A DNA stretch of 58,305 bases, the filler included, from Sphacelaria rigidula (taxonomy: Eukaryota): the NCBI GenBank assembly GCA_964200075.2. It is 9 parts of 9 records of this genome, joined end to end, with 100 filler letters (N's around TTAATTAATTAA, not from the genome) between each part and the next. Parts side by side here need not be neighbours in the genome. Positions count along the whole stretch, not along the records: positions 12,981 to 19,370 come from CAXNAA020020372.1; 8 more parts are not named here. One strand, 5' to 3'. Positions 13,118-16,819 of the stretch are shown here, in pieces. Position 1 is the stretch's first letter. Each line of letters opens with the position of its first letter. The notes beneath the pieces were generated by a model, which saw only the letters and a program-made list of their open reading frames with translations, was not told the DNA's origin and did not search any database. The position numbers were made by a program, and so were the translations under genes.

Positions 13118-16100
13118 ATGCCTGAGCCTCATATCATCCACTTCGCTGACGATGATGCGCCGTGGACGCGGCTAGCATACCTACACAAGCCGCTTTTCTG
13201 GCGCTGGAACAGAGTTCGTGAGCAGCTGGACCAGCCGTACGGTACCTTCTTTGCGCCTTGGGTGCTTTTCTTCATCCCGTCTATCGTACTGGCGTTCGCC
13301 CGGTTGTACTACAAGACCGCCGGCCTCTCGTCTTCATCGTCGCCGTCCGCTTCCACCAGGAGAAGAAGCGGCATCAAGAACAGCGCTACTACCGAGGCAA
13401 GCAACGAATACCTAGCGGCGGCCGTCGCCGCTGCTGCCACCGTCGATATGGAAGAGTCTCCGTCGAAAACGCGAAAAGGCTCGACATGGTTGACAACGCC
13501 TCCGCGTAGTAATATTCCATCGTCAGCCCACCACAGCCACACCCAGTTGGCTATTCTGCCCAGGTCTGGCATACCGGGATCGAGCCACGGCGGTGCCGTC
13601 GGAGGGTCTTCGAGCTTCTGCACCGATAATACTGCTGGCGACCTTGCCACAGCACCAGAAAATCACGCGTTCCCCTCGTGTCTGCGGGCGGGCGTACTCT
13701 GCTACGTGGTTACGGCGATAGTGGCGGTGCTGGGCTTCATTTGGTTCCGAGCGACAAGGACGCTTGCGCGAGAGGTGGTGGACGCTCGCTGGCACCCCTT
13801 TATTTCCATCGCAGTGTACAACGCGTGGCTCTGCTGCGCGCTGGTTCTGGGCCTATACTTGATGGATTACGTTTACTACCTGTTCAAGACACGCGCTAGG
13901 TCCCTGTGGAGGGACGCCGCCGCCGTTTCGATCTTTGTCTCCACGGTTTCGTTCTTGCATGGCCGCAAGGGCACGGCGTGGGCCGTCGCGATCGGGCTGG
14001 GAATCATAGCGCTCGGCTTCGGTCACGGCAGCCGTCCGGAATCAGCGCGTTGTCTGTCCGGTCGCATCCACTTCCGGTGCATCACAGCGAGCTGCATCCT
14101 CAGCGTGGCGGCGTCTCTCGCCGTCTGCTACGGGGGCGCCAGCGCTCACGAGGTGGCCAGCGGTCGCGTCCAGGACGCGGCGTCGAGGCTGCACATGATA
14201 TTCACGGCGTTAGTGTATGCGTCTGTCATCTGTGGGCATCGTCTTCGTGCCGATATCGGAGAGGCGGGTCTTGCGCTCGACCTCGTCGCCGCCGCTACTC
14301 ATCCCCCCCCAGCGGCGGCGGGCACAGCTCCCTGCTTGACGTCCGAGGCCTCGGTCGCGGCGGCGGGCATGTCCGCGAATGCTGTCGTTGCTGGAATCCA
14401 CGTGGTGGGGAGTGGGAAAAGCCCGTCAATAGTGGGAAATGTCACCACCGTTGCCGGCAAGGACGAGCCCAGCCCCTCCACAGTGTGGGCAGTTGTGGTG
14501 GTAAAAAGCGCGGTGGCGTGGATCAAGAGCACATTCTGGAGGCGGCGTGTAGTGGCACCCTGCCTGGTGCTGTTTGTTCTGTGGCCTCTGTCCTCAACTG
14601 TACAGATGTCGAGCCCCGGGGTACGGCTCGAAAAGTACGGCCAGTCGTGCCTTGGGGGCCCTGCAGGGTTCGTGGAGGCTGGGGGTAAACGCCTGTCGAA
14701 GGTGTGTGGGGCGGAGCAGGCCCTCCGCCCGGTCAAAACGGGGGCCTACTTTGAGGCCTTCCGACAGGACAAGGTATGCTTGGAGGTCGCTGGCGGCGGA
14801 TTCTTGTCGCTCGGTCGGGTGCACGTAGCGCAGGCGTGCACGCCGGAAGTTCAGTTCGTGTTTCAGCTGGTCCAGCGCCGCGGGAAAAAGCCAAAGCCTG
14901 GCAGCACAGAGGTGCTTTCGGCGGGACCCTCCCCGTGGACTCAAGATCCTGGCGAGTACTGCGTCTACAACCCGACGCTCGGGCTTTATCTAAGCGCGCA
15001 GGGCCACCCGAAAGCGTCTTGCGGAGAATTGGAGCACTGGATCATGAAGCCGGCACCTACCGCGCCGGGGCTCTCCAGGGGCTCCGCCAATGAGCGCGAA
15101 TCGCAGTCCGTGGTGTCCATGTTGCTGCACCCGAACTTTTTGTCGCGAGGCCCGCTCCGCACATTGTATGGGTACCTGGCGGCGGCCACGTGTCTCTTGC
15201 TCGTTCGCGCGGTGTTTGCCAAGCTAGCCTCGTCTCAAGCCGACGCAGTAGCTAACTGTGGCGGCGGTGCCAAACCCAGGCACGGTGGCTTGGGTTCACG
15301 GCGAAACTCGAGAGGTAGCAAGCACACGCGGTCGCGCAACAGCGGAGACTATGACTATGCCGGTTACTTTGGTGATGCGGGTTACGCCGGCGATGCGGAG
15401 AGTGGAAGCGCGGGTCACGACGCTGGGATCGCGAGAGCAAAGTCGCTCGGGAAAAAGGGCTCTTTTAGTCTCTCTGACTGGTCCCCTGCGGTGGCTCCGG
15501 CGCAAGAAACCGAGGAACACCTCAGCTGGGGGCTCGATATGGTGCCCGCTCCCCACGCCTGTGGCGCTCTTGGCGCAGTGGAGAGGGGACTCAAAAGGGA
15601 GGCATCACTGGCGCGCGCGAAAAGCGGTGCTGCAGCAGCGGTTGACGTCAGCACGGCCACGGCTTCGTCAAAATGTACAAGCGGAAGTGGGCGTGACCGC
15701 TTCCTTTTGAAGCTGTTCTCGGGACTTTGTGTGGCGTGCGACGCGACGCTACTCGCTGGTCTGTGGTGTCTCATCCCTACACACTTCGCGCAGGCGTTGA
15801 GCTCTCTGACCCACGATCATAACTCGGCTATCCAGCAGGGGCTGGGGATGGGCGACGCGTTCAGCCACAACGATGTCGTCGATGAAGGATCCGTTGAAAT
15901 TCGGGGACTCCAGGAAGGAGTGATCATCGTCGGCAACTTCGACGTCGACCGCGCGGGCGACCCGGAGGCCCTGTCCGTGCCATCGTGCCACGGAATGGCA
16001 TGGTGGGTCATGTCCGCGTTCATCCGCTGGCACCTCCTTTTCCTTGTAGTGGCGTTCTGCCACCTGCACGGCGCCGTCGCCGCCGCTGCTGTGGCCAAGC

Positions 16101-16819
16101 AGCAGACTGGGCGCGATCGTCGCACGGGCAAGCGCATTGTTCACGAGCGGCCGTCGTTCTGGGGACTACGGGCGGGCGAGCGCGTCGCCATGCGACTCCG
16201 CACGGGGCTCGGTGTTCTGGCGCTGCTCTGCGTGGCCGCAACTTCGAGCGGCGCCGCGAGCATCGGTGGGGATGGTGGCGGTGGTGGTGGCATGAGTGCC
16301 GCTTTTTTGGGACTCCACGCTCATCCGGCATGGGGCAAGTGCGCCCCTGCGTCGGGCCTTGACGGATCGTGGGGCAGTGTCTCCCCGCTTCTCGTGTTTG
16401 CCGTTGTCGCCACTGCTGCCGGCGTGTACGTGAGGGCGGGTGCGACGAGCGCTGTACGCGTCGGTGCCAGGGTCGTACTCCTCACTGCGGCGCTTGCGAT
16501 CTTGGCGGCCGTCGGACGGACGTACTTCCTACTTGCCGTTGCCGCCGCCGGCATGGATTGGACGGCGTGGGGCATCGCCGGTCTGCTGTCGTGCGTCTGC
16601 TACCAGAAGCCCTCGTTGCCCCGGTTGGGCAAAGACGGCAGCGGCAGCGGGGCGGCGGGGGAGTCTGGTGCTGATGTCGGCGGCGATTATAGAAGAAGCG
16701 GGGTCCGGGTGGCGAGTAAAAAAAGGGAGACGGGGCGCGAGTGGCGGCACTACTCGGCTGCGCAACGGCGACACGCGCCCCGCGATCAGAGTCAGCTAGG
16801 AGAGGAGCAGGGGAGCTAG
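13118..16819 (+). CDS. 3.7-kb terminal exon of a GT8 / IPUT1-like multi-pass membrane protein with a long C-terminal extension and beta-trefoil-like domain
   Basis: 1233-codon GC-rich open frame; preceded by a pyrimidine tract and TTTGCAG| acceptor; starts IIHFADDDAPW...KP..RWNRVREQL + TM helix, resembling the GT8 H..G..KPW end and the IPUT1 membrane region; roughly 15 hydrophobic segments by eye. Confidence 0.8.
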   Translation: MPEPHIIHFADDDAPWTRLAYLHKPLFWRWNRVREQLDQPYGTFFAPWVLFFIPSIVLAFARLYYKTAGLSSSSSPSASTRRRSGIKNSATTEASNEYLAAAVAAAATVDMEESPSKTRKGSTWLTTPPRSNIPSSAHHSHTQLAILPRSGIPGSSHGGAVGGSSSFCTDNTAGDLATAPENHAFPSCLRAGVLCYVVTAIVAVLGFIWFRATRTLAREVVDARWHPFISIAVYNAWLCCALVLGLYLMDYVYYLFKTRARSLWRDAAAVSIFVSTVSFLHGRKGTAWAVAIGLGIIALGFGHGSRPESARCLSGRIHFRCITASCILSVAASLAVCYGGASAHEVASGRVQDAASRLHMIFTALVYASVICGHRLRADIGEAGLALDLVAAATHPPPAAAGTAPCLTSEASVAAAGMSANAVVAGIHVVGSGKSPSIVGNVTTVAGKDEPSPSTVWAVVVVKSAVAWIKSTFWRRRVVAPCLVLFVLWPLSSTVQMSSPGVRLEKYGQSCLGGPAGFVEAGGKRLSKVCGAEQALRPVKTGAYFEAFRQDKVCLEVAGGGFLSLGRVHVAQACTPEVQFVFQLVQRRGKKPKPGSTEVLSAGPSPWTQDPGEYCVYNPTLGLYLSAQGHPKASCGELEHWIMKPAPTAPGLSRGSANERESQSVVSMLLHPNFLSRGPLRTLYGYLAAATCLLLVRAVFAKLASSQADAVANCGGGAKPRHGGLGSRRNSRGSKHTRSRNSGDYDYAGYFGDAGYAGDAESGSAGHDAGIARAKSLGKKGSFSLSDWSPAVAPAQETEEHLSWGLDMVPAPHACGALGAVERGLKREASLARAKSGAAAAVDVSTATASSKCTSGSGRDRFLLKLFSGLCVACDATLLAGLWCLIPTHFAQALSSLTHDHNSAIQQGLGMGDAFSHNDVVDEGSVEIRGLQEGVIIVGNFDVDRAGDPEALSVPSCHGMAWWVMSAFIRWHLLFLVVAFCHLHGAVAAAAVAKQQTGRDRRTGKRIVHERPSFWGLRAGERVAMRLRTGLGVLALLCVAATSSGAASIGGDGGGGGGMSAAFLGLHAHPAWGKCAPASGLDGSWGSVSPLLVFAVVATAAGVYVRAGATSAVRVGARVVLLTAALAILAAVGRTYFLLAVAAAGMDWTAWGIAGLLSCVCYQKPSLPRLGKDGSGSGAAGESGADVGGDYRRSGVRVASKKRETGREWRHYSAAQRRHAPRDQSQLGEEQGS

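What the first reader, a model, noticed from the sequence alone, without database searches (positions are those of the whole stretch)
13118..16819. IPUT1-like GT8 glycosyltransferase with a ~900-aa membrane extension: candidate novel glycolipid/glycan synthesis architecture
Seen: a 3.7-kb uninterrupted frame after a splice acceptor, so earlier exons lie off-contig. Its first ~300 aa follow the layout I recall for the C-terminal half of plant IPUT1/PGSIP6 (GT8 inositol-phosphoceramide glucuronosyltransferase). That layout is IIH...PW...KP...W..(V/I)R..L, a TM helix, a Ser-rich loop, then TM helices with a V-x5-P-x7-9-W pattern (VVDARWHPFISIAVYNAW). Plant IPUT1 ends soon after this region; here ~900 more residues follow, with further TM bundles, a Cys-rich repeat domain and charged loops. 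Inference: a stramenopile GT8 fused to extra membrane and possibly lectin modules, which may point to an uncharacterised GIPC-like sphingolipid or wall-glycan pathway.
Basis: partly seen in the sequence, partly recalled or inferred. Interest (0 to 1): 0.8.

Follow-up and report, generated by a model that had tools for sequence, protein, structure and literature searches.

The report
Brown-alga GT8-like membrane protein exon
This is the large last exon of a brown-alga gene for a huge membrane protein that joins a degenerate glycogenin-type sugar-transferase domain to two bundles of membrane helices and a lectin-like beta-trefoil, a family of unknown function so far named only in brown algae and their close relatives.

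Summary
An open frame runs 13094-16819 (chance about 5e-16). Transcript-like contigs from three runs cover it without a gap. They leave the genome exactly at the AG acceptor before 13118.

The ten codons they read upstream equal the last ten residues of a partial Sphacelaria rigidula protein on another contig (P0046). P0046 is the missing N-terminal part and is glycogenin-like. A profile of the family hits glycogenin at E 4.6e-16.

The GT8 link is therefore real, but the domain is degenerate:
- DxD reads DPR; 0 of 34 family sequences keep the second Asp.
- HxxGxxKPW reads HFADDDAPW.
- No member reaches Pfam's GT8 cut-off.

The window encodes the end of that domain and then:
- TM1 and a disordered loop;
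- a conserved six-helix core plus TM8;
- TM9 and a second disordered loop;
- a second six-helix bundle.

Every member that carries an organism name comes from the PX clade of ochrophytes.

A specific IPUT1 relationship could not be tested, and sequence searches did not support it. My best reading is a secretory-pathway membrane protein whose GT8-derived domain is non-canonical, perhaps non-catalytic. Its function is unknown. It is a new variant of a known kind and of moderate interest.

The parts
13061..13117 (+). 3' end of an intron: pyrimidine-rich tract and AG acceptor (AG at 13116-13117)
   Evidence: The sequence was read. Contigs of runs X1, X3 and X7 leave the genome exactly at 13116, while the DNA-like X5 contig stays colinear from 13087.
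13118..16819 (+). Last coding exon, 1233 codons plus a TAG stop at 16817-16819. No intron lies inside it.
   Evidence: The transcript-like contigs cover it with 0 gaps. It is 98% identical to the NCBI Sphacelaria rigidula model P0002.
13118..13249 (+). End of the GT8-like lumenal domain and the juxtamembrane segment (aa 1-44). It includes the remnant of GT8 motif HxxGxxKPW, which reads HFADDDAPW (aa 8-16, 13139-13165).
   Evidence: The motif definition comes from PMC7533613 (passage). Mean identity to the family is 0.65.
13250..13324 (+). TM1 (aa 45-69)
   Evidence: Hydropathy peak of 2.04; helix 45-69 in the model; identity 0.74.
13325..13675 (+). Loop A (aa 70-186): Ser-rich and basic, predicted disordered, poorly conserved, probably cytosolic
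   Evidence: pLDDT below 50 for aa 72-185; identity 0.20.
13676..14296 (+). Conserved helical core TM2-TM7 (aa 187-393). It carries the family signature VVDxxWHP..AWLCCALV, plus TRxRxL..D, GHGSR and LSGRxHFRC.
   Evidence: Helices 187-220, 227-257, 263-282, 287-304, 316-338 and 347-393 with pLDDT mostly 80-94. Invariant residues are listed. Identity 0.54.
14297..14605 (+). Loop B (disordered), an amphipathic helix and TM8 (aa 394-496)
14624..15067 (+). Beta-trefoil domain (aa 503-650). Each of its three repeats has one invariant Cys pair (C511/C530, C554/C574, C615/C635). Probably lumenal or extracellular.
15152..15256 (+). TM9 (aa 679-713)
15257..15685 (+). Loop C (aa 714-856): Arg/Ser/Gly-rich, disordered, probably cytosolic
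   Evidence: pLDDT below 50 for aa 716-855; identity 0.29.
15686..16603 (+). Second helical bundle TM10-TM15 (aa 857-1162). Among the sequences examined it occurs only in the long forms: brown algae, Chrysoparadoxa and P0027.
   Evidence: Helices 857-908, 960-995, 1021-1050, 1090-1106, 1111-1132 and 1134-1162. The alignment shows that the short forms end after the trefoil.
16604..16816 (+). Basic, poorly conserved C-terminal tail (aa 1163-1233)
16820..18304 (+). 3' untranslated region, about 1.5 kb, as far as the transcript-like contigs reach
   Evidence: The X1 contig ends at 18304 and the X7 contig at 18255. No Pfam family was found in the largest minus-strand ORF there.

Best explanation
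The interval is the last exon of a Sphacelaria rigidula gene that is split over two small assembly contigs. The whole protein has at least 1578 residues: 345 in the partial P0046 plus the 1233 encoded here.

Reading from the N-terminus, the protein has:
- a Cys-rich, glycogenin-like GT8-derived domain;
- TM1 and a disordered basic loop;
- a conserved six-helix core plus TM8;
- a beta-trefoil with three disulfide-type Cys pairs;
- TM9 and a second disordered basic loop;
- a second six-helix bundle;
- a basic tail.

By inference from the positive-inside rule, the Cys pairs, and the signal or anchor sequences seen in full-length homologues, the GT8-like domain and the trefoil both face the lumen or the outside. 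The family signature VVDxxWHP sits at that same face of the membrane.

The GT8-derived domain has lost the second Asp of DxD and the Gly and Lys of HxxGxxKPW. By a less certain alignment it has also lost the two catalytic Asp of glycogenin. It therefore cannot work as a canonical Mn-dependent retaining GT8.

My inferred mechanism is that the protein acts in the secretory pathway or at the cell surface on a membrane-bound or wall glycoconjugate. The degenerate GT8 domain would serve as a nucleotide-sugar or glycan-binding module. It is either non-catalytic or metal-independent, with Arg in place of the metal ligand. The trefoil would act as a carbohydrate-binding module, and the conserved helical core would hold the membrane partner.

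The gene structure, domain order, homology and motif losses are shown. Topology, localisation, ligand and activity are inferred.
For: Gene structure:
- The transcript-like contigs are colinear with 0 gaps from 13116: X1 to 18304, X7 to 18255, and X3's 5662-nt contig to 16956.
- All three leave the genome at the acceptor.
- I translated the 30 loose letters plus the AG by hand. They give RTRRCTLCDE, which equals the last 10 residues of P0046, a partial S. rigidula protein on a 7514-bp contig.
- The X1 contig has about 1.9 kb more sequence upstream.

GT8 homology:
- The profile of 13 family members hits glycogenin-2 (4ueg_A) at E 4.6e-16 and glycogenin-1 at about 1e-15. This was repeated with alignment A3.
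- P0046 alone hits glycogenin-1 at E 0.0024, with 'yldprs' aligned on 'FMDADT'.

Motif loss:
- 0 of 34 sequences keep the second Asp of DxD, while 32 of 34 keep the first.
- In HxxGxxKPW, His is kept in 20 of 35, Lys in 3 of 35 and Gly in 0 of 33.

Domains in the window: the AlphaFold model is described, the beta-trefoil matches, and the six Cys invariant in 25 sequences. Folded parts are conserved (identity 0.53-0.74) and loops are not (0.10-0.29).

Distribution: only 23 hits in 1.84 billion representative proteins. Every member that carries an organism name is from the PX clade.
Against: - No activity, ligand or localisation data exist. The functional reading rests on motif loss and fold analogy.
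- The GT8-like domain is strongly conserved within brown algae, and Arg at the lost Asp position is frequent (DPR, DSR, GPR or NSR in 22 of 34). This fits a working, metal-independent enzyme as well as it fits a pseudo-enzyme.
- Brown-alga members keep the His of motif 2 and the Lys that aligns with the diphosphate-binding Lys of glycogenin (MTK).
- The alignment that places glycogenin's catalytic Asp residues opposite Ser/Ala has only middling posterior support.
- The models are of moderate quality overall (mean pLDDT 60.0 and 61.6).
- The helical bundles were never folded or searched on their own, so a known fold may have been missed.
- The runs that gave the spliced contigs are not on record as RNA. 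That they are transcripts is my inference from the splice.
Confidence: 0.5

Rival explanations
1. One reading: an active IPUT1-like GT8 glycosyltransferase. Its membrane domain presents a lipid acceptor (an inositol-phosphoceramide-like sphingolipid or another glycolipid) to the lumenal catalytic domain. The extra modules add substrate recognition.
For: - The architecture matches: a GT8-type domain followed by several TM helices. IPUT1 is described as GT8 plus six TM domains (PMC9317492, passage).
- In the atlas feature search with the N-terminal domain of P0026, the nearest named clusters were GT8. They included clusters labelled as the PGSIP6 family or carrying PGSIP7_C in 15% of members. 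This is a lead only.
- The domain is conserved, and the brown-alga members keep the motif-2 His and the MTK Lys.
- Arg at the lost Asp position could replace the metal. This is my own knowledge of metal-independent GT-A enzymes and was not checked here.
Against: - The second Asp of DxD is absent in 34 of 34 sequences.
- In HxxGxxKPW, Gly is kept in 0 of 33 and Lys in 3 of 35.
- No member reaches Pfam's GT8 cut-off; the best score is 13.4 bits against 24.3.
- phmmer of the window's 1200 aa found no plant PGSIP6/IPUT1 among 23 hits in 1.84 billion proteins.
- Pfam found nothing on the window's protein.
- No literature on GIPC in this lineage was found.
Confidence: 0.25
2. The membrane core itself is the working part: a transporter, a lipid-linked-sugar transferase of the GT-C kind, or another membrane enzyme. 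The degenerate GT8 domain and the trefoil would be accessory lumenal modules, much as the MIR trefoil sits in a lumenal loop of protein O-mannosyltransferases.
For: - The best-conserved motifs of the whole protein lie in the helical core and include charged and polar residues: D222, W225, H226, P227, D250, R259/R261, H303, R306, R316/H318/R320.
- VVDxxWHP lies at the inferred lumenal end of TM3.
- The order 'helices, trefoil, helices' recalls Pmt1-Pmt2, which appeared in Foldseek for the P0029 model at E 1.2e-3 (6p25_A).
Against: - The Pmt match is poor: TM-score 0.13 and rmsd 18.8 over 500 columns.
- It was not seen for the window's own model.
- The short forms of the family end right after the trefoil, so they lack the helices that would follow the trefoil in a PMT-like layout.
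- No sequence or profile hit to any membrane protein in the PDB.
Confidence: 0.13
3. Not a real gene product: a chance open frame in GC-rich DNA, a pseudogene, or a mis-joined gene model.
For: - The region is GC-rich (63% in 14001-16000).
- About 40% of the model has pLDDT below 50.
- The assembly is fragmented into contigs of 6-7 kb.
Against: - The chance of the open frame is 4.8e-16.
- Homologues share 44-64% identity over 83-100% of the length in other brown algae.
- Conservation follows the folded parts.
- Spliced contigs cover the whole exon.
Confidence: 0.02

Closest known systems
Glycogenin (GT8; PDB 4ueg, 3u2t, 1ll2)
   Same: The family's N-terminal domain is homologous by profile (E 4.6e-16) and by predicted fold. 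The LWSLT.Y..V.f.D block aligns residue for residue.
   Different: - DxD reads D-P-R, and HxxGxxKPW reads HFADDDAPW.
- The catalytic Asp residues are probably lost.
- There are large low-complexity inserts.
- The domain is lumenal, Cys-rich and fused to about 15 TM helices.
- Only the last ~40 residues of this domain lie in the window.
Plant IPUT1 / PGSIP6 (GT8 inositol-phosphoceramide glucuronosyltransferase)
   Same: The layout is the same: a GT8 domain followed by a multi-helix membrane domain (PMC9317492, passage).
   Different: - No detectable sequence similarity of the membrane part.
- The catalytic motifs are not kept.
- The protein is three times longer, with a trefoil and a second helical bundle.
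- A direct alignment could not be made because no IPUT1 sequence was retrieved.
GAUT5 / GAUT7, the proposed non-catalytic GT8 partners that anchor GAUT1 in the Golgi
   Same: They are GT8-family proteins for which a structural, non-catalytic role has been proposed (PMC7533613, passages). This is a precedent for a GT8 domain kept for a role other than catalysis.
   Different: According to that paper, GAUT7 still carries DxD and HxxGxxKPW and is a single-pass type II protein. The present family has lost the motifs and is multi-pass.
Beta-trefoil lectins and carbohydrate-binding modules (SeviL 6lf1, CBM92 7zoh, CBM13 1knl)
   Different: - Sequence identity is only 15-17%.
- There was no Pfam ricin-type hit.
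- Sugar binding has not been shown.
- The domain is inserted between TM helices of a multi-pass protein.
Protein O-mannosyltransferases Pmt1/Pmt2 (GT-C with a MIR trefoil in a lumenal loop)
   Same: Same order of parts: several TM helices, a lumenal beta-trefoil, then more TM helices. There was a weak Foldseek row (6p25_A, E 1.2e-3).
   Different: The superposition is poor (TM-score 0.13). There is no sequence similarity, and short family members lack the helices after the trefoil.

Membership tests
GT8 glycosyltransferases (CAZy GT8 / Pfam PF01501) | Sequence homology of the catalytic domain to known GT8 members | tested here: met
   The family profile hits glycogenin-2 at E 4.6e-16 and the Skp1 alpha-GalT 6mw5 at 7.7e-11. 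Sphacelaria P0046 alone hits glycogenin-1 at E 0.0024. The domain lies upstream of the window; the window holds only its last ~40 residues.
GT8 glycosyltransferases (CAZy GT8 / Pfam PF01501) | Score above Pfam's gathering threshold for Glyco_transf_8 (24.3 bits) | tested here: not met
   The best scores are 13.4 bits (P0026) and 12.6 bits (P0033). There was no hit for P0001, for P0046 or for any of the other family proteins scanned.
GT8 glycosyltransferases (CAZy GT8 / Pfam PF01501) | GT-A fold like glycogenin | tested here: met
GT8 glycosyltransferases (CAZy GT8 / Pfam PF01501) | DxD motif that binds Mn2+ | tested here: not met
   It reads DPR in Sphacelaria P0046, aligned on glycogenin DAD. 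0 of 34 family sequences have Asp at the third position.
GT8 glycosyltransferases (CAZy GT8 / Pfam PF01501) | HxxGxxKPW motif (NDP-sugar contact; definition from PMC7533613) | tested here: not met
   The window reads HFADDDAPW (aa 8-16). Across the family His is kept in 20 of 35, Lys in 3 of 35 and Gly in 0 of 33, while Pro-Trp is mostly kept. The motif position was assigned by inspection, not by a significant alignment.
GT8 glycosyltransferases (CAZy GT8 / Pfam PF01501) | Glycosyl transfer from a nucleotide sugar | not testable with these tools
   This needs an enzyme assay.
IPUT1 / PGSIP6 clade | GT8 domain followed by a multi-helix membrane domain | tested here: met
   See the alignment and models of the family. 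The IPUT1 layout is taken from PMC9317492 (passage).
IPUT1 / PGSIP6 clade | Sequence or profile similarity of the membrane part to the IPUT1 C-terminal half | tested here: inconclusive
   - No plant PGSIP6 appeared among the 23 phmmer hits.
- Pfam found nothing. Whether the local Pfam copy holds PF28460 PGSIP7_C is unknown.
- The atlas search on aa 180-400 gave no usable hit.
- No IPUT1 sequence could be fetched for a direct profile comparison.
IPUT1 / PGSIP6 clade | Glucuronosylation of inositol phosphoceramide | not testable with these tools
   This needs lipidomics or a yeast assay.
Beta-trefoil (ricin-B / CBM13-like) carbohydrate-binding domains | Beta-trefoil fold with threefold repeat | tested here: met
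Beta-trefoil (ricin-B / CBM13-like) carbohydrate-binding domains | Sugar-binding residues (QxW-type motifs) and sugar binding | tested here: inconclusive
   There was no Pfam ricin-type hit. The sequence shows QFVFQ and E.W where QxW would sit; this motif placement is my own reading. The fold is also shared by non-lectins such as fascin and FGF.
GT-C / protein O-mannosyltransferase-like | GT-C membrane fold | tested here: inconclusive
   There was only one weak Foldseek row (6p25_A, E 1.2e-3, TM-score 0.13). The helical core was not folded or searched alone.

The most novel reading that the evidence does not exclude
A glycosylation machine of the PX clade. A GT8-derived lumenal domain has swapped its metal-binding Asp for Arg and works without Mn2+. 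It is coupled to a previously undescribed eight-helix core that holds a lipid or lipid-linked acceptor at the VVDxxWHP face, and to a trefoil that holds the growing glycan. Together they would make a glycolipid or wall-polymer primer peculiar to brown algae and their relatives.
Probability: 0.12. Interest if true: 0.75.

Novelty: new variant of a known kind. Interest (0 to 1): 0.42.

Why it matters
Little is known about the enzymes that build the extracellular matrix and glycolipids of brown algae. This family is conserved from Sphacelaria to Ectocarpus and Laminaria. It also reaches Tribonema and Chrysoparadoxa.

The protein combines three glycan-related hints with two helical bundles for which no relative was found. 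The hints are a GT8-derived domain, a lectin-type trefoil, and Cys patterns typical of lumenal domains.

If the GT8-derived domain is active, it would be an example of a GT8 working without DxD. If it is inactive, it would be a large pseudo-glycosyltransferase kept under selection. Either way the gene is a reasonable target for knock-out in Ectocarpus.

The result also corrects the fragmented annotation: two 'unnamed protein products' of S. rigidula are one gene.

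Tried and rejected
- Pfam on the window's protein gave only a spurious row at E 0.11.
- The whole genome is not held, and earlier notes of this scan were empty.
- The search for homologous proteins with alignment A2 returned only 8 family members.
- The search with P0026 residues 50-400 among shorter proteins returned 2 hits and no plant GT8. 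An alignment with IPUT1/PGSIP6 was therefore impossible. That search did give P0046.
- The atlas search on aa 180-400 gave no usable hit.
- Foldseek and VIA-align on the two whole models listed only glycogenin and beta-trefoil chains. The helical bundles were barely tested, and I make no claim that their folds are new.
- Profiles of A2 and A3 against PDB sequences gave no membrane protein. The only non-GT8 row was an acetylcholine-receptor fragment at E 2.1.
- hhalign of bundle 1 against bundle 2 gave probability 0.2%, so there is no sign of an internal duplication.
- tblastn of P0046 against the window found no upstream exons there.
- Run search: no RNA holder is listed on record. That X1, X3 and X7 are transcript assemblies is inferred from the splice.
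- Literature searches found no paper describing this family. The term pairs were PGSIP6 + brown alga, GT8 + Ectocarpus, GT8 + brown algae, and glycosyl inositol phosphoryl ceramide + stramenopiles. The library lacks most subscription journals, and supplements were not consulted.
- Complex prediction was not used; no binding claim is made.

Full report
**What the window is.** The window is not one stretch of genome. It consists of nine pieces of about 6390 bases joined by N44-TTAATTAATTAA-N44 spacers. The finding lies in the piece 12981-19370. The DNA to its left, a kinesin gene fragment, is therefore not a genomic neighbour. No whole genome is held for the window.

**The observation.**
- The frame is open from 13094 to 16819, which is 1241 codons.
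- From the ATG at 13118 it gives a protein of 1233 residues, P0001.
- With the region's own composition the chance of such an open frame is 4.8e-16.
- Position 13118 follows 'tgtttgcag', which comes after a long pyrimidine tract.

**The organism.** An NCBI protein named 'unnamed protein product [Sphacelaria rigidula]' (P0002, 1214 aa, on a 6390-bp contig) is 98% identical over the full length. The organism is therefore this brown alga (lineage).

**Evidence for the acceptor and the exon.** I laid public assemblies of four runs on 12981-18498.
- Three runs of transcriptome-like size (X1, X3, X7) each give one long contig (7069, 5662 and 7018 nt). Each is colinear with the window from 13116, with no gap. 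X1 reaches 18304, X7 reaches 18255, and X3's contig reaches 16956.
- All three continue upstream of 13116 with letters unlike the genome.
- The large DNA-like run X5 gives a contig colinear from 13087.
- Two forms therefore exist: one with the intron and one spliced at the AG.
- The runs are not on record as RNA. That they are transcripts is my inference from this behaviour.
- The exon has no internal intron in these contigs. The 57-nt GT..AG 'intron' that the NCBI model P0002 removes (19 residues) is not supported by them, although contigs can hide rare isoforms.
- The contigs extend about 1.5 kb past the stop codon, which I read as 3'UTR.

**The missing upstream part.** I read the 30 loose letters printed by hand, in frame, together with the AG. 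They encode RTRRCTLCDE directly before MPEPHIIHF. A search with the N-terminal domain of the Chrysoparadoxa homologue returned P0046, 'unnamed protein product, partial [Sphacelaria rigidula]'. It has 345 aa, lies on a different 7514-bp contig, and ends ...WAGRTRRCTLCDE. All ten residues match. P0046 and P0001 are therefore two parts of one gene of at least 1578 codons. The X1 contig has about 1.9 kb upstream of the junction, which is room for about 620 codons. P0046's exons are not in the window.

**Is it GT8?**
- Full-length homologues of 1775-1855 aa occur in Ectocarpus and Scytosiphon. One is named 'GT8 [Ectocarpus sp. CCAP 1310/34]'.
- Pfam alone does not recognise them. The best PF01501 scores are 13.4 and 12.6 bits against a cut-off of 24.3, and most members give nothing.
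- A profile of 13 family members does hit glycogenin-2 at E 4.6e-16. It also hits nineteen further PDB sequences: eighteen glycogenins (E from 1.5e-15 to 5e-14) and the Skp1 alpha-galactosyltransferase 6mw5 (7.7e-11). The match covers about 170 positions and was reproduced with a second alignment.
- P0046 alone hits glycogenin-1 at E 0.0024.
- The domain is thus a true but very divergent relative of glycogenin-type GT8.

**The catalytic motifs are not kept.**
- In the alignments, the family's 'LDPRS' lies on glycogenin's 'DADT'.
- Among 34 family sequences that carry this block (near-identical cluster members included), the triplet is DPR in 15, DSA in 7, DSR in 5 and DPL in 2. DPW, DPF, DPY, GPR and NSR occur once each. 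None has Asp at the third position.
- The second GT8 motif, HxxGxxKPW (definition read in PMC7533613), is encoded at the very start of the window's exon as HFADDDAPW. Among 35 sequences His is kept in 20, Lys in 3, and Gly in 0 of the 33 nine-residue versions.
- In one search, glycogenin's DGGDQG (the two catalytic Asp, by my knowledge of glycogenin) aligns with S-L-E-A-Q in brown algae. That stretch has only middling posterior support.
- Brown-alga members do keep the Lys in MTK..LW, which aligns with glycogenin's LTKLHCW.

**What the window itself encodes.** This description comes from the AlphaFold model of aa 1-1200 with a 27-sequence alignment (mean pLDDT 60.0), from hydropathy and from conservation.
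- The end of the GT8-like domain and KPLFWRW (aa 1-44).
- TM1 (aa 45-69).
- A disordered Ser-rich basic loop (aa 70-186; identity to the family 0.20).
- Six confident helices (aa 187-393; pLDDT mostly 80-94). They carry the family signature VVDxxWHP..AWLCCALV and other invariant polar residues.
- A disordered loop and TM8 (to aa 496).
- A beta-trefoil (aa 503-650; pLDDT about 90).
- TM9 (aa 679-713).
- A long Arg/Ser/Gly-rich disordered loop (aa 714-856).
- Six more helices (aa 857-1162).
- A basic tail.

**Topology (inferred).**
- Full-length homologues start with a hydrophobic signal or anchor, and their GT8-like domain has conserved Cys.
- The basic loops fall on alternate sides in a way that puts loops A, B and C and the tail in the cytosol.
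- The GT8-like domain, the VVDxxWHP loop and the trefoil would then lie on the lumenal or outer side.

**The family.**
- phmmer of the window's first 1200 aa against 1.84 billion representative proteins found 23 hits at E <= 0.001 and 8 at E <= 1e-30. I inspected 22 of them. All show the family's own motifs, and none looks like a plant PGSIP6. P0043 (66 aa) was not looked at.
- The members that carry an organism name are Sphacelaria, Ectocarpus, Scytosiphon, Laminaria, Hapterophycus and Discosporangium (brown algae), plus Chrysoparadoxa australica and Tribonema minus. The three lineages I looked up are all in the PX clade of Ochrophyta. Many other members come from unnamed assemblies.
- Short forms of 765-900 aa end right after the trefoil. 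Long forms add the second bundle.

**Comparison with IPUT1.** IPUT1 proteins are described as a GT8 domain plus six TM domains, with an ORF of 1611 bp (PMC9317492, passages). The core of this family has the same general layout. No search linked the membrane part to plant proteins. The atlas feature search with the GT8-like domain of P0026 listed GT8 clusters as nearest, some labelled PGSIP6 or carrying PGSIP7_C. That is a lead, not a test.

**Mechanism.**
- Shown: the gene structure, the domain order, the GT8 homology, the motif losses, the trefoil fold and the restricted distribution.
- Inferred: topology, localisation and function.
- I commit to a secretory-pathway or surface membrane protein that acts on a membrane-bound or wall glycoconjugate. 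Its GT8-derived domain is non-canonical. It is either non-catalytic, as proposed for the GT8 proteins GAUT5/GAUT7 (PMC7533613), or metal-independent with Arg in the place of the lost Asp. I put this at about 0.5.
- A membrane core that is itself the enzyme or transporter stands at about 0.13.
- An artefact stands at about 0.02.

**Novelty.** The Ectocarpus orthologue already bears the label GT8, so the GT8 link is not new. I found no paper on the family in four literature searches. New here are:
- the join of the two Sphacelaria fragments;
- the consistent loss of both GT8 motifs;
- the trefoil;
- the two helical bundles;
- the restriction of named members to the PX clade.

I rate it a new variant of a known kind, of moderate interest.

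Noticed in passing
window 1-58305 (spacers at 6391-6490, 12881-12980, 19371-19470, 25861-25960, 32350-32449, 38839-38938, 45328-45427, 51817-51916): The window is nine pieces of about 6390 bases joined by N44-TTAATTAATTAA-N44 spacers. Adjacent pieces are not genomic neighbours, and 'context' across a spacer means nothing.
   Followed up: yes
window 10806-12180 +: Exons of a kinesin gene lie in the preceding piece. The end of the motor domain matches PF00225 (E 9.3e-7, 28.6 bits, just under the cut-off). The neck matches Kinesin_assoc (E 9.8e-6).
   Followed up: partly
window 13346-13402 +: The NCBI gene model P0002 removes a 57-nt GT..AG stretch (19 residues in the Ser-rich loop) as an intron. 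The three transcript-like contigs keep it.
   Followed up: yes
window 16953-16985 and 18410-18445: G-runs and low-complexity stretches in the 3'UTR attract many unrelated contigs of the DNA run, with depth up to several thousand and false 'joints' that skip about 1435 bases. This looks like a repeat artefact, not splicing.
   Followed up: partly
window 3526-4329 +: A 267-codon open frame has a weak match to DUF7769 (E 1.3e-5, 25.2 bits, below the cut-off of 27). It may be a remnant of a mobile element.
   Followed up: no
window 11119-11650: Long AT-rich triplet-like simple repeats give poly-Asn, poly-Leu, poly-Ile or poly-Val in all frames. They lie within the kinesin piece and look like intronic microsatellite.
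   Followed up: no
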